From the sequence record OQ850289: a stretch of DNA of 64,000 nt; one strand, 5' to 3'. The notes under the pieces are model-generated. The model was not told the origin of the DNA, did no database searches, and saw nothing but the letters and a program-made list of their open reading frames with translations. The translations under genes and the position numbers were made by a program. Origin of the DNA: Escherichia phage vB_EcoM_ULIM3. The first letter of the stretch is position 1, and each line of letters begins with the position of its first letter. Below are positions 33,445 to 50,486 of the stretch, piece by piece.

Positions 33445-35589
33445 ATGAACAAAGTACAGATTATTAAAAAGAATGGCTCACTTGAAGAACCTGATATCAA
33501 AAAAGTTTTAGCAGCAGTAACTAAGTCAGCTAACAGGGTTGGATATAAAGAACTCCCACCAGATGTTACCCAAGCTCTTGAGTCAGCATTCATGAGGATT
33601 CTGGTAAAGTCCACTAAGCAGAATAATTTACTCATCTCAGTCAATGATATTCACAGCATTGTTGAGGGTGCTTTGGCAGAAGTCAATCACGAGATTTATG
33701 AGTCTTACTCAACATACAGAAATTACCGGAAAGAGGTTGCTCAAAATTGGGATGAGCTTTACCAAAAGACTAGAGACACGCTCTTCTTAGGTGACCGTGA
33801 AAACGCTAACTTTGACAGCAGTTTAATTTCTACAAAAGGTTCAATTATTCGTGGTTACCTGACTAAAGAAATCTTTAAGCAGTACCATTTAACACCAGAG
33901 GAACTTGAAGCCATTGAAAAAGGGTTTATCTACATCCATGACTTAAGAGACCTGATTTTTGGCGGCATTAACTGTTGCTTGTTTGACATTGGTAAAGTAC
34001 TGAAAGGTGGCTTTGAAATGTCTGGCATCGAATACTGTGAACCGAAGTCTGTACTGTCAGCCTTACAGGTTATTGGTGATGTAGTTCTTTCAGCAACTGC
34101 ACAGCAATTTGGCGGCTTTACTTTAGCAGAGATTGATAAGGTACTTGTACCGTATGCTAAGAAGTCTCTACGCTACCATGCTGAGAAAGCAGCATCTTAT
34201 GGTATTCCTAAAGAACATTACCATAATTATATCATGGAGCAGCTACAGATTGAATTAACTCAAGGTTTTCAGTCACTTGAAATGAAACTGAACACTGTAC
34301 CTTGCAGCCGTGGTGATTTCGCATTCACAACTTTAACATTTGGTTTACTTGACTCAGATATGTCTAATGAAGACAACCGACTACAATACATGATTGCAAG
34401 TACTCTCCTAGATGTTCGTATGAATGGACAAGGTAAGAGCAAAAAACCTGTTGTATTCCCTAAACTTGTTTATATCTACGACCAGAAGAGACATGATGAA
34501 AATATCTGTCAAGGTCACCTGTACAGTAAAGCTATTGAGTGTTGCTCTAAAGCAATGTATCCAGATTTCTTAAGTGTATCTGGTCATGGTGCTGTAGCAG
34601 AGGCTTTTGAGCGTTCTGGTAAGGTGATTTCACCGATGGGTTGCAGAGCCTTCTTATCTCCATATCTTAATGAGGATGGGGAAGAGTTCTATGTTGGTCG
34701 TGCTAACATTGGTGCTGTATCTTTGAACTTGCCAATGATTTACCAGTATTCTAAAGAGAATGGTTTAGATTTCTGGAAAGAGCTTGATAAGTACCTAGAG
34801 ATGATTCGCAGCTTCCACAAGAAACGCTACGAAATGATTGCTAATATGCCAGCAAGTTCTAACCCTCTTGCATTCACACAAGGTGGTTTGTACAAAGGTA
34901 TTAAGAAACCTACTGATAAGGTTGGTTGGGATATTGTGAAGTCCTTCACAGCTTCTTTTGGGGTTACCGCACTGGATGAGTTATCTGTTCTTGCTGAAGG
35001 TAAACGGCTGCATGAAGCTGGGAGCTATAGTTTTGCATACGATGTTCTGGCATACATTAACATGAAAACTGAAGAGTTTAAAAATGAAGATGGCTTCTTA
35101 TATGCTGTCTATGGTACTCCAGCAGAATCACTTTGTGGAACTCAGCTAAAACAGTTCAGAGAAATGTTTGGTGTTATTAAAGGCGTTTCTGACAAGGAAT
35201 ACTTTACAAACAGTTTCCATATGAATGTTACGGCAGACATCTCACCATTTGAGAAGCAGGACTTAGAAGAGCCATTCTTCCATATCTGTAGAGGTGGCAG
35301 AATCCAGTATGTAAGGGTAGCTAACCCAGAAAACTTAACAGCACTTAAAAGTTGTATTACCAGAGGGATGTTGAAGGGTTTTTATCAGGGACTTAACTTT
35401 GACTTAGCAATCTGTGAGCATTGTGGTAACAGACCAAAGGCTGATGTTGAAGAATGTGAGGTTTGCCATTCACATGATATCTCTGTGATTAACAGGGTGT
35501 GTGGGTATCTTGGGTGGACTAAGATTAAAGGCGAATCCCGAATGAACGATGCAAAAATTGCTGAGATTCGTGACAGAATCTCTATGTAA
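33445..35589 (+). CDS. nrdD: anaerobic ribonucleoside-triphosphate reductase
   Basis: 714 aa; C-terminal Cys cluster CEHCGN..CEVCH and glycyl-radical motif RVCGYLG. Confidence 0.85.
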   Translation: MNKVQIIKKNGSLEEPDIKKVLAAVTKSANRVGYKELPPDVTQALESAFMRILVKSTKQNNLLISVNDIHSIVEGALAEVNHEIYESYSTYRNYRKEVAQNWDELYQKTRDTLFLGDRENANFDSSLISTKGSIIRGYLTKEIFKQYHLTPEELEAIEKGFIYIHDLRDLIFGGINCCLFDIGKVLKGGFEMSGIEYCEPKSVLSALQVIGDVVLSATAQQFGGFTLAEIDKVLVPYAKKSLRYHAEKAASYGIPKEHYHNYIMEQLQIELTQGFQSLEMKLNTVPCSRGDFAFTTLTFGLLDSDMSNEDNRLQYMIASTLLDVRMNGQGKSKKPVVFPKLVYIYDQKRHDENICQGHLYSKAIECCSKAMYPDFLSVSGHGAVAEAFERSGKVISPMGCRAFLSPYLNEDGEEFYVGRANIGAVSLNLPMIYQYSKENGLDFWKELDKYLEMIRSFHKKRYEMIANMPASSNPLAFTQGGLYKGIKKPTDKVGWDIVKSFTASFGVTALDELSVLAEGKRLHEAGSYSFAYDVLAYINMKTEEFKNEDGFLYAVYGTPAESLCGTQLKQFREMFGVIKGVSDKEYFTNSFHMNVTADISPFEKQDLEEPFFHICRGGRIQYVRVANPENLTALKSCITRGMLKGFYQGLNFDLAICEHCGNRPKADVEECEVCHSHDISVINRVCGYLGWTKIKGESRMNDAKIAEIRDRISM

Positions 35590-37543: not shown

Positions 37544-37555
37544 ACAGATACTATA

Positions 37556-37581
37556 AGGGAACTGTAAAGGTTCCCTTTTTA
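37556..37581 (+). terminator. intrinsic terminator
   Basis: AAGGGAAC-loop-GTTCCCTT followed by TTT. Confidence 0.65.
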
Positions 37582-37594
37582 TTTTGGAGATAAC

Positions 37595-37945
37595 ATGTAT
37601 CTGTCAAACCTGAAACGTTCTGCTGCAATGTCAGTGTTAAGACTCAGTTTTGATGAGCGTCAAGAGTTTATAGACTCCCACAAATATGACCCTTCAAATT
37701 CTAATCACATGGTTCTTTGGAATCGTGATAACTTCCGTGAAAGAGCACTTGTCCGTTATTACCCACACTACACAATAGATAACCTGTATGAATGGTGTGT
37801 TGTGAAGAACACCATTGCAACACTGAACAATCTTTGCAGGTATACGGGTAAGCAAACATTTACATTAGGTCATCACAAACCTGTTACAAAAGGTGGTGAA
37901 CATCACTGTGCAAACTGGTTTATCCAAACTAAAGCTGATAACTAG
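37595..37945 (+). CDS. putative small HNH-like nuclease
   Basis: 116 aa; C-terminal GHHKPVTKGGEHHCANW resembles an HNH motif. Confidence 0.35.
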   Translation: MYLSNLKRSAAMSVLRLSFDERQEFIDSHKYDPSNSNHMVLWNRDNFRERALVRYYPHYTIDNLYEWCVVKNTIATLNNLCRYTGKQTFTLGHHKPVTKGGEHHCANWFIQTKADN

Positions 37946-38102
37946 AAGCAAGGAGATAGCCTCCTAAGTATCCCTAAGATGACCTATGAAGAGCAAGAGA
38001 AATATATCAAAAATAATATGCCAGATGTGCTTGACAACAACTATACAGATTTGGCAATATCTCTCCTGTTGAAGTTCGAGACAGTTTATAGGGCAACTTA
38101 TA

Positions 38103-38381
38103 ATGGCTAAAGAAAAGTGGGAGATTTTACCATTAGTCAGTGAAGGAGGTAATGGTTGTGAAATGTACATGATACGTGGTCATGTTCCAGAGCCAATTGC
38201 ACTTGAGATGGTAAACAACTTTACAGATGGTTCTTACAAAGACTTAGGCGAACCAACTGTCAAGCAACAATGGGTTAAACCTGTACCAGACAGCACAGGT
38301 AACTGTAGTGTACTTTATCACGTTGTAGACCCTGCAAAATGCAAATCTGCAATGGCAGTAACAAACGTAACTTTTGATTGA
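38103..38381 (+). CDS. hypothetical protein
   Basis: 92 aa ORF. Confidence 0.45.
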   Translation: MAKEKWEILPLVSEGGNGCEMYMIRGHVPEPIALEMVNNFTDGSYKDLGEPTVKQQWVKPVPDSTGNCSVLYHVVDPAKCKSAMAVTNVTFD

Positions 38382-39274
38382 GAGAGAAAACTATGAAAAC
38401 ATCTATCCGTGTCACAATTCATTCACCGACTAAAGGAACTCATGAAGAAGAGTTTAACATAATCCAATTCCCTTCTGGTGAGATTGGTGGCCACTTTTCA
38501 CAAGAGCTTGTTGATTTTACTGCTTATGCAGCATCATCTATTAACAATGTGGTTATGATTGTAAAGGGTTATGACAAAGACACACTGTTTGCTGTGGCAC
38601 TGGCTAAAGAAGCAATTGACGATTTAGTTCCTCATGATTATGCCCTGAAGACTGTCATTTTTTACTACTTGCCAAATGCACGATACGACCGTCACATGTT
38701 TAAAGGCGACGCAGCAGCTTTAAAGGTTTTTGCTAAACAGGTAAATGCAATGGGATTTGGTGCAGTCTGTGCAGTTGACCCTCACAGTTATGTACCAGAT
38801 AACCTGTTTAACTGCTTCCAAAGTATTCCTCAAAAGGAGATTGCAGTCCACTATGCAAATGACCCTCTAATTGATTACTTAGTAGCCCCAGATGCAGGTG
38901 CTTCTAAGAAGATTGCAGAGACTGCTAAAGAGGTGGATAAACCATATATCACAATGTCTAAGGTGCGAAATCTTAAGACTGGAGAAATCACTGGTATGCG
39001 AATCCTTGACGATGTTGATTTGACCGATAAAACCGTCATGATTCTTGATGATATCTGTGATGGTGGTCGAACCTTCGTAGAGGCAGCTAAACACCTACGT
39101 GAAGCAGGTGCAAAACGTGTTGAGCTTTATGTAACACATGGTATCTTCTCTAAAGGTGTTGAAAACCTTCTTGACAACGGTATCGACCATATTTACACTA
39201 CAAACTCTTTAGGCGAAGCTAAAGACCGTGGCTTAACACATTATGGTCAAGTTACTGTAGCAAACATTGATTAG
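38378..39274 (+). CDS. ribose-phosphate pyrophosphokinase family protein (Prs-like)
   Basis: 298 aa; PRTase motif VMILDDICDGGRTF, PHDYALKTVIFYYLPNARYDR and VAPDAGASKK collinear with Prs. Confidence 0.8.
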   Translation: MREKTMKTSIRVTIHSPTKGTHEEEFNIIQFPSGEIGGHFSQELVDFTAYAASSINNVVMIVKGYDKDTLFAVALAKEAIDDLVPHDYALKTVIFYYLPNARYDRHMFKGDAAALKVFAKQVNAMGFGAVCAVDPHSYVPDNLFNCFQSIPQKEIAVHYANDPLIDYLVAPDAGASKKIAETAKEVDKPYITMSKVRNLKTGEITGMRILDDVDLTDKTVMILDDICDGGRTFVEAAKHLREAGAKRVELYVTHGIFSKGVENLLDNGIDHIYTTNSLGEAKDRGLTHYGQVTVANID

Positions 39275-39282
39275 GTAACAGT

Positions 39283-39774
39283 ATGAATAAGGGTTATTTT
39301 GAAAGATACCTAATATATGAACCAGATACAGGTTTATTAATTTGGAGAGTAACCCTTTGCAGTACCGCTATTGCTGGTAATGTGGCTGGCACAAGGTCTA
39401 AGAAGGGTTATATCCAAGTCCAGATAAATAAGAAGAGGTACTATGCACATAATATTGCATGGATTATGTCTGGAGGTGAGATACCAAGTGGATATGAGAT
39501 AGACCACATAGACCTTGATAAATCTAATAATAAGTTGGAGAATTTAAGACTTAGCACAAAGTCACAAAATCAGAGGAACAGGGGTATATACAAGAATAAT
39601 AAAACTGGTGTGAAGGGTGTAAGTTTTTGTAAACAAACAGGTCTTTACAAAGCAAGAGTCATGCTTTACCATAAAGAATACTTTTGTGGAAGATTTAAAA
39701 CGGTAGAAGAAGCAAAAGAAGCTGTAATTAAAAAGCGAATAGAACTTCATGGTGAGTTTGCAAGACATAACTAA
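39283..39774 (+). CDS. HNH homing endonuclease with AP2-like DNA-binding domain
   Basis: 163 aa; HNH region YAHNIAW..IDHIDLDKSNNKLENLRLSTKSQN; AP2-like KGVSFCKQTGLYKARV..FKTVEEA; inserted between Prs-like and NAMPT-like genes. Confidence 0.75.
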   Translation: MNKGYFERYLIYEPDTGLLIWRVTLCSTAIAGNVAGTRSKKGYIQVQINKKRYYAHNIAWIMSGGEIPSGYEIDHIDLDKSNNKLENLRLSTKSQNQRNRGIYKNNKTGVKGVSFCKQTGLYKARVMLYHKEYFCGRFKTVEEAKEAVIKKRIELHGEFARHN

Positions 39775-39788
39775 GAGAGAGATAAAAT

Positions 39789-41570
39789 ATGAGTAAGTCA
39801 CTTTACGCAGTACCAGCAGGTCTTAATGCAGATGCTTACAAGGCATCACATATATATCAGTATCCAGATGCTACGCAATATCTTATGTTGAACCTGACAC
39901 CACGTAGTGACAAATGGTTTAACAGCCCCTTAGCAATTGATGGTGTAGTAGCTTTTGGTATTCAACGTTTCGTTAAAGATTACTTGATAGACCACTGGAA
40001 CGCCACTTTCTTTGAACGTGATAAAAAAGAAGCCATTGATGAAATCTTAGAAGTCATGAATGGTGTTCTGGGTAAAGATGCTATCAGTCGAGAGCATTGG
40101 GAAGCACTTCACGACTTAGGTTATCTACCAGTTGAAGTATACGCTGTAGAAGAAGGTACAGTTGTCCCTATGCGTGTCCCAATGATTGTTTTCCAGAACA
40201 CTGTTTCAGGTTTCCATTGGGTAGCAGGTTATCTGGAAGATGCTTTCTCTGCTGAGATTTGGAAGGCTTGTACCATTGCAACTATTGCATTGCACTACAA
40301 ACGTATCTGTAAGAAGTGGGCTGACCTTACTTGTGACAATGACTTACATTTACCTTATCAGTGCCATGATTTTGCTATGCGTGGTATGTCCGGCTTTACT
40401 GATGACGCATTTAATGCTGTAGGTCACTTAACCAGCTTTAAAGGGACTGATAGCTTCCCTGCTGTGTACACAGCTAAACGCATCTATGGACAGTCCTACC
40501 CAATTTCTGATATTGGTAGTTCTGTACCAGCCACTGAACACTCTGTCATGTGTGCAAACATTGCTTGGGAAGGTGGTAATGAGTTGATTGAAGAGGAAAG
40601 ACGCTTTAAAGGTGAGTTACAAACCTTCCGTCGTTTCTTAACAGAAACTTACCCAACTGGTATTGCAAGTATTGTTTCAGATACTTATAACTTCTGGAGA
40701 ACTGTGTCAGAAATCTTACCAGCACTCCGTAAAGAAATTATGGAACGTGATGGTAAACTGGTAATTCGCCCTGACTCTGGAGACCCTGTACATATTGTCA
40801 CAGGTTATAAAGCAATCCACTTAGAGTGTGCTAAAAAGGCTTATTACGAGCACCTAAGCAAGCTTGAAGCCAGCGACACAATGTTGAATGCTGTTCTGAA
40901 CATGAAGCTTGAAAACATCAACTATGGTGTTGCTGGATGGCTACTGTCAGAAGGCTACGAAATGGTTGTTGACAGAGAAGACTTTGAAGTTGCTGATACA
41001 GTGCTGTTGAAAAACGCTTATATGGTTGGCTCTGCAAACGTTGTAACACGTCCTGTAGCGGAGATTGATGGAGCTATCAAGACACTGTATAACATCTTTG
41101 GAGGAACTATCAACTCTAAAGGTTTTAAAGTACTGGATGAGCATATCGGGCTTATTTATGGCGACTCTATCACGTTGGAACGTGCAAACGAAATACTGAA
41201 GCGTTTGTATGAAATGGGTTTTGCAAGCTCTAACGTAGTGTTTGGTGTAGGTTCTTACACTTACCAGTACATGACTCGTGACACCTTTGCATTTGCTGTC
41301 AAAGCAACTCTTGCAAGCATTGGTGGTAAAGAGATTATGCTTGCAAAAGACCCTAAAACAGATAGTGGTGTTAAGAAGTCTGCTTTTGGTGGTGTAGCAC
41401 CTATGTGGGATGGTGAAAATCTGAAAGCTGTCGATGGCTATGGGTTCCAGAGCTTTGCAGATGCACTTGAACACCCAGCTTGTGCTTTACGTCTAGTCTT
41501 TAGCGACTCTGAGCAGTTCGGCTACACGACTCTTGGTGATATTCGAAATAATATTGACAAGCAGCTTTAA
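39789..41570 (+). CDS. nadV: nicotinamide phosphoribosyltransferase family protein
   Basis: 593 aa; size and overall similarity to NAMPT/NadV-type enzymes; gene symbol tentative. Confidence 0.7.
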   Translation: MSKSLYAVPAGLNADAYKASHIYQYPDATQYLMLNLTPRSDKWFNSPLAIDGVVAFGIQRFVKDYLIDHWNATFFERDKKEAIDEILEVMNGVLGKDAISREHWEALHDLGYLPVEVYAVEEGTVVPMRVPMIVFQNTVSGFHWVAGYLEDAFSAEIWKACTIATIALHYKRICKKWADLTCDNDLHLPYQCHDFAMRGMSGFTDDAFNAVGHLTSFKGTDSFPAVYTAKRIYGQSYPISDIGSSVPATEHSVMCANIAWEGGNELIEEERRFKGELQTFRRFLTETYPTGIASIVSDTYNFWRTVSEILPALRKEIMERDGKLVIRPDSGDPVHIVTGYKAIHLECAKKAYYEHLSKLEASDTMLNAVLNMKLENINYGVAGWLLSEGYEMVVDREDFEVADTVLLKNAYMVGSANVVTRPVAEIDGAIKTLYNIFGGTINSKGFKVLDEHIGLIYGDSITLERANEILKRLYEMGFASSNVVFGVGSYTYQYMTRDTFAFAVKATLASIGGKEIMLAKDPKTDSGVKKSAFGGVAPMWDGENLKAVDGYGFQSFADALEHPACALRLVFSDSEQFGYTTLGDIRNNIDKQL

Positions 41571-41584
41571 AAGTATATGATAAG

Positions 41585-41608
41585 AGGCTCCTACGGGAGC
41601 CTTTTTAA
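41585..41608 (+). terminator. intrinsic terminator
   Basis: GAGGCTCC-TAC-GGGAGCCTT followed by TTTT. Confidence 0.7.
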
Positions 41609-41623
41609 TTTCTGGAGAATGCT

Positions 41624-41968
41624 ATGGACAACCTTTCCATATGGTTTAACAAGAAACCTGTGCAACCGAAATACTTACAAGTTGCCTATACAGACATCCT
41701 TGAAGTTCTCGGTAAAGAAAAGTTTGAAAAGTTTTGTGAAGGTATCTACAATCACCACTGCCAATTTGCTACAAAAGAAGGTATGTTTGTCATAGAACAG
41801 TTCTTTGGCAGAGACCCAGATGACTACGAAGAGATTAGCTTTGTAATGAAATACATGATAGAGTATATTGAAAATCGTGGATTCGAAGTTAATCCTGAAT
41901 TTTATGAACATGAGGGTGTGCCTTTAGCAAAAGGTTTTGATGGCATACTCGTTAACTGGACTTGGTGA
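41624..41968 (+). CDS. hypothetical protein
   Basis: 114 aa ORF with GGAGA SD. Confidence 0.5.
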   Translation: MDNLSIWFNKKPVQPKYLQVAYTDILEVLGKEKFEKFCEGIYNHHCQFATKEGMFVIEQFFGRDPDDYEEISFVMKYMIEYIENRGFEVNPEFYEHEGVPLAKGFDGILVNWTW

Positions 41969-42309
41969 AAATTATGAAAATCAAAGAGATGAACATCAAC
42001 ATTGTCTTAGAAGAGCGTTGGGAGAACATCAAGAAACCTGAAAATGGTCATAAGCTCCTTAACAAAATTTTAGTAGCAGCTAAAGAAGAACTGACTGGTA
42101 AGATTGCAGCAGCAATCACAATAAAGGTCTGTGTAAAAGGTCTTCCAGACAATCACCAATTTGCACTTGACGAGTTTAAAGAAAGCTTCTACAATCCAAA
42201 CAAACAGATGCTTGAAAGTAACTTTGCAGTGTCTACAAGTATTGTCCATGACAGAAGCTTTATCCTTTACAAGAATATGAGAGGTGAGTCATGCAAGCAT
42301 ATTGGATAG
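41962..42309 (+). CDS. hypothetical protein
   Basis: 115 aa ORF. Confidence 0.5.
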   Translation: MVKIMKIKEMNINIVLEERWENIKKPENGHKLLNKILVAAKEELTGKIAAAITIKVCVKGLPDNHQFALDEFKESFYNPNKQMLESNFAVSTSIVHDRSFILYKNMRGESCKHIG

Positions 42310-42495: not shown

Positions 42496-44862
42496 ATGCG
42501 CATGGTAAACGACCACGCAGAAGTGATTAAGAGTTCAACTTCTTTAGAGACGTCTCAAGCACAGATTACAATGACACCTGAAATGTTCAGCCTTTTGAGT
42601 TCTGGTGTATATACCTTTAAAGAAAGGGCAGTTATTCGTGAACTGTCATGTAACGCAGTAGATGCTCAGAAAGAAGCTGGAAAAGAGAACATCCCATTCC
42701 ATGTGCATTTACCTACTCGTTTTGAGCCTTACTTTGAAGTTCGTGATTTTGGAACTGGATTAACTCATGACAAAGTTATGAGCTTGTACCTAAACTACGG
42801 GGCTTCTACAAAGAATGACTCCAATGACTACATTGGTGCAATGGGTATCGGCTCAAAGTCACCATTTGCAATTGCTCAGTCATTCACAGTATCTAGCTAT
42901 GTTGATGGTGTTGTTAATAAGTACTCTGTTTACCTTGAGAATGGTATCCCTCAAGTAACTAAGCTGACAACTAACCCAACAAAAGAACCTAATGGTTTAG
43001 CTGTACGTGTGGCAGTTGCTGACCACCGTATCTCAAAGTTCTTTGAAGAAGCTGGTAATGTATACTCATACTTTGCTGTAAAACCAGAAAGTAATATTGT
43101 GTACGACGATGTATTAGCAGATATGAACGTCATTGCCCGTGAAGAGGGTGTTTATGATGCCATGATTCATAAGCAAAGTTGGCGTTCTAGTGGTAACAGG
43201 ACAGAGTTTAATGTGGTGATGGGTAACATTGCCTACCCTGTTAACATGGAAGCATTACTTGGTGATGACTTCTTCAAAGTATTGCCAGAATTTTTCCGTA
43301 GGAGCGTAGACCTTGTAAACATCTACATGCCTATTGGTTCAGTTGCTATTGCAGCTTCTCGTGAAGCATTGCAGATGAATGACACGACAAAAAATGTTAT
43401 CATTGAGGCTACTAAAAAGATAACTGAAGCCATTACAAAGGATGTTATCAAGAAAGTTAATAGCCAACCTACACTTATGGATGCTGCACAGGCTTATGCA
43501 GAGTTACGTTTGAACTCACGAGAAATGTTTAATGCTGTGTGTCCAAAGCTAGAGTGGGGAGGTGTTAAGCTTGACTCTCTGGAAGAAGAATTACTAAACA
43601 TTCGTCGTGGGATTATCTACGCAGAAGACGGCTCAGTCATTTATGAACGTGATGGTAAAGGTAATATTAAGGTTGATAGGAACGGAAACAATATACCTAA
43701 AGTGGACTACCTATACAATCCAGTTGCTTATGTCAAGTTCAACTCTTTAGAGAGTAAGATTCGTGCAACAGCACTTTCCTACACTCAAGAGGCAAGTATG
43801 TTCAATATCTTTGGCGCAATGCGTAAAAGCCAAATTGAACAGTTTTTGTTCGTGATTAATGACCGTCGCAATAAAAACGGTACTGAGAAGACTGTAGGAC
43901 GCAATCAAATCTTGCGTGGTGCATGTCGAGACTACGCTAACGAGTCAGGTCTGTTCCACAGATACAATGGTATTGTGTTTGTATTCTCGACTGAAAAAGA
44001 GTTAGATGATTTAATCAATCTACACAAACTTGATAAAAGCTTGTTAAAGATTGTGAAGATGTCTGATAAGGAACATCACTATCAGCGTAAAGAAGCTGTA
44101 AGAGGTGTTGTAAAACTCTGGAAAGCTGTTCCAGCAGAAGGTGTAGCTTCCTATAAAGAGGTTTCAGAGGACTTTGATACAATTGAAGAGCCTCAACTTT
44201 ATATCAAGGCAGTAGGTGACACTGTTGATGGCGAATGTTTTTGCTCATCTCCAGAAGATGTAGCCAAGTCAGTTGCTAATGTTACAGGGAAGACAGTCTA
44301 TGTTTTCCGAAAAGCAAATTGGAAAAAGATACCAGAAGACTGGATTGAAGTAGATGAGAAACTCTTGAACGACAGCTTAACTGATGTTCATTGGATTAAT
44401 CATAACAGGTATATGACACGCATCTACATGAATGGTGTTCTTGACCTTACAAGTAGCTGGATTATTGCCAGAAACTTTACATTCAATAATAGGAAGATTT
44501 CTCGTGGTTATTGCTATTCACGGGATACAAACAAAACTATCTTCCTAGAAGGTAATGAAGAGGCTGTAGAGGCAATGTTCGGTAAAATCCAATACGTTGC
44601 TGCACCGTTTGCATACACTTATACTATTAGTGTATTGAAAACTTTGAAAGACTGTCTTGACAATGATACAAAGCTTTACAAGAAAATTAAGAAAGCTGGT
44701 GACCGTATGGTCATTAAGGTGACAAACTACCTTTCAAAAAGAAAACAAGAAAACTTCTTGCTTTCTCATTTAGATTGGAATAAAGTGTCACCCATCGAAG
44801 TGAGTAAGTTCTTAGGCTTTGATGTAAAATGTGTTCCAGAAGGGACTACAATTTACGATTAA
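42496..44862 (+). CDS. rIIA: rIIA-like protein
   Basis: 788 aa; N-terminal region collinear with T4 rIIA (FSLLSSGVYT, RELSCNAVDA, RDFGTGL, NDYIGAMGIGSKSPF). Confidence 0.85.
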   Translation: MRMVNDHAEVIKSSTSLETSQAQITMTPEMFSLLSSGVYTFKERAVIRELSCNAVDAQKEAGKENIPFHVHLPTRFEPYFEVRDFGTGLTHDKVMSLYLNYGASTKNDSNDYIGAMGIGSKSPFAIAQSFTVSSYVDGVVNKYSVYLENGIPQVTKLTTNPTKEPNGLAVRVAVADHRISKFFEEAGNVYSYFAVKPESNIVYDDVLADMNVIAREEGVYDAMIHKQSWRSSGNRTEFNVVMGNIAYPVNMEALLGDDFFKVLPEFFRRSVDLVNIYMPIGSVAIAASREALQMNDTTKNVIIEATKKITEAITKDVIKKVNSQPTLMDAAQAYAELRLNSREMFNAVCPKLEWGGVKLDSLEEELLNIRRGIIYAEDGSVIYERDGKGNIKVDRNGNNIPKVDYLYNPVAYVKFNSLESKIRATALSYTQEASMFNIFGAMRKSQIEQFLFVINDRRNKNGTEKTVGRNQILRGACRDYANESGLFHRYNGIVFVFSTEKELDDLINLHKLDKSLLKIVKMSDKEHHYQRKEAVRGVVKLWKAVPAEGVASYKEVSEDFDTIEEPQLYIKAVGDTVDGECFCSSPEDVAKSVANVTGKTVYVFRKANWKKIPEDWIEVDEKLLNDSLTDVHWINHNRYMTRIYMNGVLDLTSSWIIARNFTFNNRKISRGYCYSRDTNKTIFLEGNEEAVEAMFGKIQYVAAPFAYTYTISVLKTLKDCLDNDTKLYKKIKKAGDRMVIKVTNYLSKRKQENFLLSHLDWNKVSPIEVSKFLGFDVKCVPEGTTIYD

Positions 44863-49700: not shown

Positions 49701-50486
49701 ATGGGTATTGTAAAAATCATCAAAGGTGATATCTTTGATGCCTTTGATAAAGGCAAATTTGATATCATTGGTCATGGTTGCAACTGTATGAATTTCATGG
49801 GTGCAGGTATTGCAGCAACTATTTCTAAGCGTTATCCAAAAGTGTATGATACTGACACAGAAGTTTACCTGTTTGCAGGTGGCATTCGTCACAAACCCTG
49901 TGAAAATTTACTAGGTAATTTCTCTGTAGCACGTTTAAAACAAGGCCGTATAGCTAACCTTTACACCCAACTTCATACTGGTAAAGATGCCCGATACAGT
50001 GCTTTAGAGTCATCTTTGAAACAGCTTAACAGATACTGTGAAGTTAACCAGTTGAAGAAAGTTGGTCTACCTATGATTGGTGCAGGTATCGGTGGGCTTG
50101 ACCCTCAAGCTGTCACAGTTATCATTAATCAGGTGATGAAGAGTGTAGATGTTTATCTGTATGTCTATGAAGCAAAAATGTATAATGAGTTACACTCAGG
50201 TTGGAAAAACTACTGTGAACCAGAATACTTTGCAGGTGTAGTTGTGTTCACAGATAACGAAGTTACCCTCTTCAGACGAAGAAAAGGTAAGATACATCAA
50301 AGTAACCCTCCGGTTGAAAAGATGTCTCTGAGTAACGCTCTAGTTACCCACCTGTCGAAGAGCAATCACAGGATTGCAGTAACATTTGGCAGTGATGCAG
50401 ATACTTATATCTATGCAAGAACTGATGAGGATATCGAGACAGTTTTCTCTTCACCAGAAGTTACCTTCTTAGACGCAAAGAACTAA
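49701..50486 (+). CDS. putative macro-domain protein (ADP-ribose binding/processing)
   Basis: 261 aa; N-terminal IIKGDIFDA ... IIGHGCNCMNFMGAGIAATISKRYP resembles macro domain signatures. Confidence 0.5.
   Translation: MGIVKIIKGDIFDAFDKGKFDIIGHGCNCMNFMGAGIAATISKRYPKVYDTDTEVYLFAGGIRHKPCENLLGNFSVARLKQGRIANLYTQLHTGKDARYSALESSLKQLNRYCEVNQLKKVGLPMIGAGIGGLDPQAVTVIINQVMKSVDVYLYVYEAKMYNELHSGWKNYCEPEYFAGVVVFTDNEVTLFRRRKGKIHQSNPPVEKMSLSNALVTHLSKSNHRIAVTFGSDADTYIYARTDEDIETVFSSPEVTFLDAKN

What the first reader, a model, noticed from the sequence alone, without database searches (positions are those of the whole stretch)
38378..41570. Prs-like plus NAMPT-like gene pair split by an HNH endonuclease: candidate NAD+ salvage/reconstitution counter-defence module
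A PRPP-synthetase-family ORF (PRTase motif VMILDDICDGGRTF, diverged R-x-D-R loop NARYDR) lies 500 bp upstream of a 593 aa NAMPT-family ORF, with a free-standing HNH-AP2 homing endonuclease between them. No NMN adenylyltransferase is recognisable nearby, so a classical three-step salvage route looks incomplete. This argues for a self-contained two-enzyme route in which the Prs-like enzyme acts on ADP-ribose rather than ribose-5-phosphate and the NAMPT-like enzyme condenses the product with nicotinamide. Such pathways are thought to let phages restore NAD+ after NAD+-depleting host immunity.
Basis: partly seen in the sequence, partly recalled or inferred. Interest (0 to 1): 0.85.

Follow-up and report, generated by a model that had tools for sequence, protein, structure and literature searches.

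The report
Known phage NAD+ rebuilding gene pair
This is the already-described two-enzyme phage pathway NARP1, which rebuilds NAD+ after bacterial immunity destroys it; here it sits in a Felix O1-like phage with a common selfish endonuclease gene between the two genes, so it is real but not new.

Summary
The window holds three intact, tightly packed + strand genes:
- an HNH(+weak AP2) endonuclease gene, 39283-39774;
- a 593-aa Nampt-like gene, 39789-41570.

The window is a Felixounavirus genome segment (about 96-97% nt identity to many GenBank phages). The two enzymes are syntenic orthologues of genes 79 and 80 of phage Bas63, at 79% and 97% aa identity. NARP1 (Adps + Namat) was discovered in that operon by deletion and metabolomics (Osterman et al. 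2024).

The published Namat signature (GSYTYQYMTRD, K-W in the selectivity loop) and catalytic residues are present. So are the catalytic residues of the ICP1 Adps structure. Both genes are under purifying selection.

No NMNAT or Nudix domain was found among 96 window ORFs, which excludes the NARP2 layout. The HNH gene is an intergenic insertion found at this locus in 61 phage records, including Felix O1. It is absent from Bas63.

One loose lead: a Poa1p/TARG1-like Macro protein lies 8 kb downstream (49701-50486) and could be a distal ADPR-1''-P phosphatase (Adpp-like).

The parts
37555..37577 (+). Terminator-like hairpin plus T-run upstream of the gene block. Probable 5' boundary of the transcription unit that contains the module (inference).
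   Evidence: The same hairpin sits at the same relative position in Bas63 (L006 14809-14831).
38393..39274 (+). adps: ADP-ribose pyrophosphokinase (Prs fold), 293 aa from the ATG.
   Evidence: Pfam and PHROG hits. 79% aa identity to Bas63_0079. 37% identity (120 bits) to the biochemically and structurally validated ICP1 Adps, against 29% (60 bits) to E. coli Prs. ICP1 residues R87, H121, D161, K185, D212, D213 and D216 are all conserved. All NCBIfam Prs equivalog cut-offs are missed. dN/dS is 0.16 against Bas63.
39283..39774 (+). Free-standing HNH (HNH_3, weak AP2) homing-endonuclease gene inserted in the adps-namat spacer.
   Evidence: Absent from Bas63, which has a 45-nt spacer with a short GC hairpin. 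Present once per genome at this locus in 61 phage records at 89-99.8% nt identity, including Felix O1.
39789..41570 (+). namat: nicotinamide ADP-ribose transferase (Nampt fold), 593 aa.
   Evidence: 97% aa identity to Bas63_0080. 434 bits to SPbetaL1 Namat structures 9W5W/9W5X, against about 143 bits to human NAMPT and 179 bits to 7yqo, a 'Pre-B cell enhancing factor related protein'. SCH motif GSYTYQYMTRD at 488-498 and SCL K42-W43, with all catalytic residues conserved. dN/dS is 0.07.
41582..41605 (+). Terminator-like hairpin (10-bp stem, T-run) 12 nt after the namat stop. Probable 3' end of the unit (inference).
   Evidence: The identical hairpin follows Bas63 gene 80.

Best explanation
The locus is a NARP1 (NAD+ reconstitution pathway 1) anti-defence module of a Felix O1-like phage.

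Host SIR2-, TIR- or SEFIR-type immune effectors cleave NAD+ into ADP-ribose and nicotinamide. Adps (38393-39274) then transfers the beta-gamma pyrophosphate of ATP to the 1'' hydroxyl of ADP-ribose, giving ADPR-pyrophosphate. Namat (39789-41570) displaces that pyrophosphate with nicotinamide and regenerates NAD+ directly, with no NMN intermediate and no NMN adenylyltransferase.

The HNH gene between them (39283-39774) is a selfish homing endonuclease that landed in the intergenic spacer. It is presumably co-transcribed and is not part of the pathway.

What is shown here: gene content, orthology, conserved residues, purifying selection, and the optional nature of the HNH gene.

What is inferred from published work on orthologues: the chemistry and the anti-defence phenotype.
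For: (1) The window is a Felixounavirus segment: 259 phage records match the 4-kb region, the best at 96.7% nt identity.

(2) It is syntenic with Bas63 genes 77-81. Adps is 79% and Namat 97% identical to Bas63_0079/0080.

(3) Published experiments on Bas63:
- Deleting genes 79-80 sensitises the phage about 20-fold to SIR2-HerA and deepens NAD+ loss.
- ADPR-PP (m/z 720.010) appears only with both the genes and the defence system present.

(4) Published biochemistry on homologues:
- SPbetaL1 Adps gave no product in the PRPP-synthetase control reaction but converted ADPR + ATP to ADPR-PP.
- SPbetaL1 Namat makes NAD+ from ADPR-PP + nicotinamide.
- ICP1 Adps structures define R87, H121, D161, K185, D212, D213 and D216. 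All are conserved here.

(5) The Namat-specific signature GSX-phi-X-phi-X-phi-TRD with aromatic X reads GSYTYQYMTRD here. The selectivity loop has K42-W43 exactly as in Bas63. D13, Y15, F189, R192, D215, H245, R306, D308, G360, D361 and T398-R399-D400 of SPbetaL1 Namat are all conserved.

(6) Scores favour Adps and Namat over the housekeeping enzymes.

(7) dN/dS is 0.16 for adps and 0.07 for namat.

(8) No NMNAT or Nudix domain was found in 96 other window ORFs.

(9) The HNH gene is intergenic, both flanking ORFs are intact, and the same arrangement occurs in 61 phage genomes.
Against: No experiment exists on this exact sequence.

The N-terminal about 185 residues of Adps belong to a different allele from the one in Bas63: 71.5% nt identity and dS about 1.4 over the first 555 nt. 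The genetically tested protein is therefore not identical in the domain that helps bind the adenine of ADPR. ICP1 F18 and F92 align with T16 and M102 here. Bas63 also has M102, and the alignment is unreliable around residue 16.

Sequence alone cannot strictly separate Adps from Prs, because the catalytic residues are shared.

Namat retains PRPP-dependent NMN synthesis in vitro, so a side contribution through NMN cannot be excluded.

Co-transcription across the HNH gene is inferred only from spacing and from flanking terminator-like hairpins.
Confidence: 0.93

Rival explanations
1. Classical salvage, as the GenBank annotations say. A true PRPP synthetase supplies PRPP to a true Nampt that makes NMN, and host NadR/NadD or PncC finishes NAD+ synthesis.
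For: Pfam, PHROG and NCBIfam names are Prs and Nampt/NAPRTase. The Prs catalytic residues are shared. [quoted passage not shown]
Against: [quoted passage not shown] SPbetaL1 Adps gave no product in the PRPP-synthetase control reaction. Every Prs equivalog model is missed by about 190-480 bits. The Namat adenine clamp absent from Nampt is present here. The protein is much closer to Namat than to bona fide Nampt (434 vs 143-179 bits).
Confidence: 0.04
2. The module is decoupled or decaying. The HNH insertion separates the two genes transcriptionally or translationally, so the pair no longer works as a pathway in this phage.
For: The HNH gene replaces the native 45-nt spacer seen in Bas63. A neighbouring gene, the homologue of Bas63 gene 77, carries a premature TAG in this window, which shows that some local decay occurs.
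Against: Both enzyme ORFs are full length with conserved active sites and low dN/dS. The spacers are 8 and 14 nt, and a GAGAGAGA ribosome-binding run is retained before namat. The same arrangement is kept in 61 phages including Felix O1. Adps and Namat do not need to form a complex.
Confidence: 0.03

Closest known systems
NARP1 of Escherichia phage Bas63 (JohannRWettstein, MZ501086) genes 79-80: Adps + Namat (Osterman et al. 2024, bioRxiv 10.1101/2024.02.11.579819)
   Same: Same phage genus and same genomic position between the nrdG block and rIIA. Same flanking genes and terminator hairpins. Namat is 97% identical and the same length (593 aa). The Adps C-terminal 113 residues are about 98% identical.
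   Different: The window has a 500-bp HNH endonuclease gene in the spacer, while Bas63 has a 45-nt spacer with a small GC hairpin. The first 555 nt of adps are a divergent allele at 71.5% nt identity. The window-type allele is the commoner one in GenBank: about 159 records at 80% identity or more to the window, against 93 records at 60-80%, which are Bas63-like.
SPbetaL1 Namat (PDB 9W5W/9W5X) and ICP1 Adps (structures of NAR 2026, PMC12774641 and PMC13586617)
   Same: Same folds, catalytic residues and adenine-clamp motif.
   Different: Namat here carries two insertions relative to SPbetaL1: 15 aa within 256-277 and about 77 aa at 351-427, after RPDSGDPVxIxTG. The second site is variable among Namats: about 55 aa in PaoP5, about 45 aa in Vibrio phage Chester, and none in ICP1. 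The selectivity loop uses K-W rather than R. Adps is only 37% identical to ICP1 Adps over 218 aa.
Felix O1 and about 60 other Felixounavirus records with prs-HNH-nampt annotated
   Same: Identical three-gene arrangement. The HNH gene is 89-99.8% identical in nt sequence.
   Different: Nothing of kind. This window is another mosaic member, with a best 4-kb match of 96.7%.
NARP2 (KVP40 NadV + bifunctional NMNAT/Nudix NatV) and NARP1-AP (Adps-Adpp-Namat, Vibrio phage Gary)
   Same: Same purpose, restoring NAD+ during NAD+-depleting immunity, and a Nampt-fold enzyme.
   Different: No NMNAT/Nudix partner, so this is not NARP2. No Macro-domain gene lies within two genes of the pair, so it is not NARP1-AP by the published criterion. 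A Macro protein does lie about 8 kb downstream.

Membership tests
NARP1 (Adps + Namat) | A Prs-fold gene and a Nampt-fold gene in close proximity on one strand. | tested here: met
   38393-39274 and 39789-41570, both on the + strand and 514 nt apart.
NARP1 (Adps + Namat) | Orthology to an experimentally validated NARP1 operon. | tested here: met
   79% and 97% aa identity to Bas63_0079/0080, with conserved flanking genes. The Bas63 deletion phenotype is given.
NARP1 (Adps + Namat) | Namat selectivity-clamp helix motif GSX-phi-X-phi-X-phi-TRD with aromatic X, plus a stacking residue in the selectivity loop. | tested here: met
   GSYTYQYMTRD at residues 488-498, and K42-W43 as in Bas63.
NARP1 (Adps + Namat) | Nampt-like catalytic core of Namat (SPbetaL1 D13, Y15, F189, R192, D215, H245, R306, D308). 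| tested here: met
   All are conserved: D15, Y17, F195, R198, D221, H251, R327, D329.
NARP1 (Adps + Namat) | Adps acceptor and catalytic residues (ICP1 R87, H121, D161, K185, D212, D213, D216), a DDICD PP-loop start, and loss of the Prs C-terminal alpha11-alpha12 module. | tested here: met
   R97, H131, D167, K190, D219, D220 and D223 are present. DDICDGG is present, against DDMIDTGG in E. coli Prs. The protein ends without the C-terminal Prs helices. Most of these residues are shared with Prs, so they are permissive rather than discriminating.
NARP1 (Adps + Namat) | ADPR + ATP gives ADPR-PP, and ADPR-PP + nicotinamide gives NAD+. | not testable with these tools
   Biochemistry is available only for SPbetaL1, ICP1 and Paenibacillus homologues.
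Canonical class I PRPP synthetase (Prs) | Reaches the curated equivalog score of the NCBIfam Prs models. | tested here: not met
   Best equivalog is NF002095 at 103.5 bits against a cut-off of 296. Only the broad subfamily model TIGR01251 is just passed, at 118.7 against 113.
Canonical Nampt (NadV) | Lacks the adenine clamp and is closest to bona fide Nampt. | tested here: not met
   The clamp is present. Scores are 434 bits to Namat 9W5W against 143-179 bits to human NAMPT and 7yqo. The NCBIfam model NF006629 is passed (471 bits against 405), but that model does not separate Namat from Nampt.
NARP2 (NadV + NMNAT/Nudix) | A bifunctional NMN adenylyltransferase/Nudix gene accompanies the Nampt-fold gene. 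| tested here: not met
   No NMNAT, cytidylyltransferase or Nudix Pfam family was found in 96 other window ORFs. None is annotated anywhere in Bas63.
NARP1-AP (NARP1 with associated phosphatase Adpp) | A Macro-domain gene within two genes of the Adps/Namat pair (published criterion). | tested here: not met
   Four flanking ORFs (37595-37945, 38103-38381, 41624-41968, 41962-42309) have no Macro hit; the small 37979-38110 remnant of the same split upstream gene was not scanned. The only Macro protein is at 49701-50486.
Free-standing HNH homing endonuclease | An HNH nuclease domain, sporadic presence or absence at one locus among close relatives, and intergenic insertion. | tested here: met
   HNH_3 E=1.7e-19. 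Present in 61 records and absent from Bas63 and from many of the about 250 Felixounavirus-type records that carry adps. Cleavage activity and target site were not tested.

The most novel reading that the evidence does not exclude
Felixounaviruses may run a dispersed form of the extended pathway NARP1-AP. The Poa1p/TARG1-like Macro-domain protein about 8 kb downstream (49701-50486, orthologue of Bas63_0095 'putative phosphatase') could dephosphorylate ADPR-1''-phosphate to ADPR. That would let this NARP1 also counter aRES-type NAD+ phosphorolysis. The published survey would have missed it because it looked only within two genes of NARP1. A smaller possibility is that the divergent N-terminal Adps allele, or the 77-aa Namat insertion, tunes substrate range or regulation.
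Probability: 0.2. Interest if true: 0.4.

Novelty: already known. Interest (0 to 1): 0.12.

Why it matters
NARP1 lets phages defeat a whole class of NAD+-depleting bacterial defences: SIR2-HerA, DSR1/2, type I Thoeris and SEFIR. Recognising it matters for predicting the host range of therapeutic Felix O1-like phages, and for correcting the widespread 'Prs/Nampt' annotations.

This instance adds no new principle. The pathway was discovered in the same phage genus, and the HNH-interrupted layout is already in dozens of GenBank genomes. What the analysis does add:
- It corrects the probable start codon of adps.
- It shows that two old adps alleles and an optional homing endonuclease segregate at this locus.
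- It flags one testable lead, the distal Macro/Adpp-like gene.

Tried and rejected
- The PDB sequence search with the Prs-like protein returned only canonical Prs entries (best 4twb, E=8e-18). The ICP1 Adps structures are not in the PDB copy, so I fetched ICP1 Adps from GenBank instead.
- Finding Bas63 took several accession guesses.
- I looked for an NMNAT, Nudix or NadR partner by scanning 96 ORFs against Pfam in three containers. None was found.
- I considered that the HNH gene might carry a real AP2 DNA-binding domain. The hit is below Pfam's cut-off, so it stays 'weak'.
- I considered that the Bas63 spacer hairpin (GGGGCT-TGAA-AGCCCC plus ATTTT) is an internal terminator removed by the HNH insertion. 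The scan did not call it a terminator, so no claim is made.
- I considered the 77-aa Namat insertion as something unique. It is shared with Bas63 and sits at a site that varies among Namats of other phages.
- I did not run structure prediction, fold search or the very large protein-database searches. Orthology to the experimentally characterised operon already settles the question, and those runs would not change the verdict.
- The literature search for an earlier description of the Felix O1 prs-HNH-nampt layout gave only general genome papers.
Full report
**1. What is in the sequence**

| ORF | Coordinates | Length | Main hits |
|---|---|---|---|
| Prs-like | 38378-39274 | 298 aa from TTG | Pribosyltran E=3.5e-11; Pribosyl_synth E=1.8e-9; PHROG 619 E=3e-97 |
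| HNH | 39283-39774 | 163 aa | HNH_3 E=1.7e-19; AP2 E=4.5e-4, below Pfam's cut-off; PHROG 99 E=3e-68 |
| Nampt-like | 39789-41570 | 593 aa | NAPRTase E=7e-35; NAMPT_N E=6.5e-6; PHROG 448 E=1e-201; NCBIfam NF006629 471 bits against a 405 cut-off |

The quoted motifs VMILDDICDGGRTF and NARYDR are both present. NARYDR aligns with the canonical (A/S)RQDR of Prs.

One correction concerns the start of the Prs-like gene. The TTG at 38378 overlaps the stop codon of the upstream ORF. The ATG at 38393 has a GAGAGAGA run 5 nt upstream, and a similar run precedes the Nampt-like gene. The ATG is also the start annotated in the closest characterised relative. The gene is therefore most likely 38393-39274, 293 aa.

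**2. Where the window comes from**

The 4-kb region matches 259 phage records. The best match is 96.7% nt identity, and the hits are overwhelmingly Escherichia, Salmonella, Shigella and Citrobacter Felixounavirus genomes.

Composition (GC about 0.38) and gene content fit an Ounavirinae genome. That content includes baseplate and tail-fibre genes, thymidylate synthase, DHFR, DNA polymerase, primase-helicase and aerobic and anaerobic ribonucleotide reductases. An rIIA-sized 788-aa ORF follows at 42496-44862.

**3. Identification as NARP1**

Literature search found that a Prs-like plus Nampt-like 'two-gene operon' was first noticed in BASEL phages. It was dissected in Bas63 (JohannRWettstein), a Felixounavirus. 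The published findings were:
- Deleting genes 79-80 cost about 20-fold in plating on SIR2-HerA and deepened NAD+ loss.
- The rescue did not need host PncC or NadR.
- ADPR-pyrophosphate appeared only when both the genes and the defence system were present.
- With purified SPbetaL1 homologues, the first enzyme (Adps) gave no product in the PRPP-synthetase control reaction but converted ADPR + ATP to ADPR-PP. The second (Namat) made NAD+ from ADPR-PP + nicotinamide.
- The pathway defeats type I Thoeris, DSR1, DSR2, SIR2-HerA and SEFIR.

I fetched Bas63 (MZ501086). Its genes 79 and 80 lie in the same context as the window genes: downstream of the nrdG block and upstream of rIIA, with the same flanking small ORFs.
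- The window Adps is 79% identical to Bas63_0079 with no gaps.
- The window Namat is 97% identical to Bas63_0080 and has the same length.
- The upstream 800 nt align at 94% column identity.
- Identical terminator-like hairpins flank the block in both phages: window 37555-37577 and 41582-41605; Bas63 L006 14809-14831 and 18366-18389.

**4. Family-defining features**

For Namat, a 2026 structural study (PDB 9W5W/9W5X) defined an adenine 'selectivity clamp' that Nampt lacks. It has two parts:
- a helix motif GSX-phi-X-phi-X-phi-TRD with aromatic X;
- a variable loop whose third residue is R, K or Y. When that residue is K or Y, the fourth residue stacks on the adenine, as in Bas63.

The window protein reads GSYTYQYMTRD (488-498) and RSDKW (K42-W43). 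All catalytic and NMN-binding residues of SPbetaL1 Namat are conserved: D13, Y15, F189, R192, D215, A242, H245, R306, D308, G360, D361, G390, S391 and T398-R399-D400 (built on the alignment).

The window protein scores 434 bits against SPbetaL1 Namat. It scores about 143 bits against human NAMPT and 179 bits against 7yqo, a 'Pre-B cell enhancing factor related protein'.

For Adps, the ICP1 structures single out R87, H121, D161, K185, D212, D213 and D216. They also describe a remodelled PP loop and loss of the Prs C-terminal helices.
- All seven residues are conserved here, as R97, H131, D167, K190, D219, D220 and D223.
- The PP loop starts DDICDGG, against DDMIDTGG in E. coli Prs.
- The protein lacks the Prs C-terminal module.
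- BLASTP gives 120 bits to ICP1 Adps and 60 bits to E. coli Prs.
- Every NCBIfam Prs equivalog cut-off is missed by a wide margin.

Most of the Adps catalytic residues are shared with Prs. They therefore permit the assignment but do not prove it. The assignment rests mainly on orthology to Bas63 gene 79.

Both genes are under purifying selection relative to Bas63: dN/dS is 0.16 for adps and 0.07 for namat.

**5. No third enzyme**

Pfam scans of 96 further window ORFs found no NMNAT/cytidylyltransferase or Nudix family. In one search, three weak families with E>5.7e-4 were not displayed. The Bas63 annotation has no NMNAT or Nudix gene anywhere in the genome. The part of a Felixounavirus genome outside this window consists of head, tail, lysis and tRNA genes.

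The NARP2 layout (Nampt + NMNAT/Nudix) is therefore excluded.

**6. The HNH gene**

Bas63 has no gene between 79 and 80, only a 45-nt spacer containing a short GC hairpin. In the window about 500 bp replace most of that spacer. The HNH ORF starts 9 nt after the adps stop, and its own stop abuts the GAGAGAGA run before namat.

The same insert occurs once per genome in 61 phage records at 89-99.8% nt identity. These include Felix O1 itself. About 250 Felixounavirus-type records carry adps.

The insert occurs with both adps alleles: BPS15Q2 has a Bas63-like adps plus the HNH gene. Conversely, Bas63 has a homing endonuclease inside an nrdD intron, whereas the window's nrdD is one uninterrupted 714-aa ORF.

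This is ordinary homing-endonuclease presence/absence polymorphism. The HNH gene is a passenger, not a pathway component. Because Adps and Namat act sequentially without forming a complex, separating their genes should not matter, provided transcription reads through. That read-through is inferred, not shown.

**7. Variation worth recording**

Divergence between the window and Bas63 starts a few codons into adps and runs for about 555 nt, at 71.5% nt identity and dS about 1.4. Identity then returns to above 91%. This points to two old alleles of the Adps N-terminal domain that recombine within the genus.

The window-type allele is the commoner of the two: 159 records are at least 80% identical to the window, against 93 records at 60-80%.

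Namat has a 77-aa insertion after RPDSGDPVxIxTG relative to SPbetaL1. It is shared with Bas63 and lies at a site that also carries insertions of other lengths in PaoP5 and Vibrio phage Chester.

**8. Side lead**

ORF 49701-50486 (261 aa) has a Macro domain (PF01661, E=5e-7). It is the orthologue of Bas63_0095, annotated 'putative phosphatase'.
- Its first about 155 residues are 29-30% identical to the Macro proteins that sit inside or next to NARP1 operons in Vibrio phage Chester (between Adps and Namat) and Pseudomonas phage PaoP5.
- A profile of the three proteins hits TARG1/OARD1 (E=5e-19) and yeast Poa1p, an ADPR-1''-phosphate phosphatase (E=7.5e-8).

A 2026 preprint showed that such an operon-linked Macro protein (Adpp) turns ADPR-1P, the product of the aRES defence, into ADPR. 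That extends NARP1 to 'NARP1-AP'. The authors' survey looked only within two genes of NARP1.

The window's Macro gene is about 15 genes away and would not have been counted. Homologues also occur in many T4-like phages, so the link is not specific. This remains a hypothesis.

**9. Verdict**

The system is already known, and was in fact discovered in this very phage genus. The HNH-interrupted arrangement is already present, though mis-annotated as Prs/Nampt, in dozens of public genomes.

Interest is low. The only open points are the untested distal Macro protein, the function of the Namat insertion, and the two Adps alleles.

Noticed in passing
window 49701-50486 (+): A 261-aa Macro-domain protein (PF01661, E=5e-7), orthologue of Bas63_0095 'putative phosphatase'. 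Its N-terminal about 155 aa are 29-30% identical to the Macro proteins embedded in the NARP1 operons of Vibrio phage Chester and Pseudomonas phage PaoP5. It is in the TARG1/Poa1p class and has an extra C-terminal extension of about 100 aa with no family hit. It could be a distal Adpp (ADPR-1''-P phosphatase) serving NARP1.
   Followed up: partly
window 37595-38110 (+): The homologue of Bas63 gene 77 (171 aa, PHROG 3500, weak HNH-like similarity) is cut by a single CAG-to-TAG change at 37943-37945. This leaves a 116-aa ORF and a 43-aa remnant.
   Followed up: partly
window 38393-38947 (first about 555 nt of adps): A sharp mosaic block: 71.5% nt identity to Bas63 (dS about 1.4), flanked by sequence at more than 91-97% identity. 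This suggests two old alleles of the Adps N-terminal domain segregating in Felixounavirus. The window-type allele is the commoner one in GenBank.
   Followed up: partly
window 40839-41069 (Namat residues about 351-427) and about 40554-40619 (residues about 256-277): Two insertions in Namat relative to the crystallised SPbetaL1 enzyme. The 77-aa insertion lies after RPDSGDPVxIxTG, at a site that also carries insertions of other lengths in PaoP5 and Chester Namats but none in ICP1. Its function is unknown.
   Followed up: partly
window 33445-35589 (+) compared with L006 9530-12416: nrdD is a single uninterrupted 714-aa ORF here. In Bas63 it is joined from two pieces around a homing-endonuclease gene. 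The two phages thus carry their homing endonucleases at different loci.
   Followed up: no
window about 285-29291 (one ORF among the 34 in container A3; exact ORF not identified): One ORF in this part of the window matches the SegE-type GIY-YIG endonuclease family (PF19835, E=1e-27). This is a further free-standing homing endonuclease besides the HNH gene.
   Followed up: no
L007 3853-5172 (Vibrio phage ICP1 isolate 2017_Dha_AB): The Namat-like ORF as annotated is N-terminally short (439 aa, lacking the region with D13, Y15 and the selectivity loop). It reads TCD instead of the conserved TRD in the clamp helix motif. This is possibly an annotation start error, a degenerate copy, or both.
   Followed up: no
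L006 16528-16572 (Bas63 spacer between genes 79 and 80): The HNH-free spacer contains a small GC hairpin (GGGGCT-TGAA-AGCCCC) followed by ATTTT. The HNH insertion in the window removes it. It was not called a terminator by the scan, and its role is unknown.
   Followed up: partly
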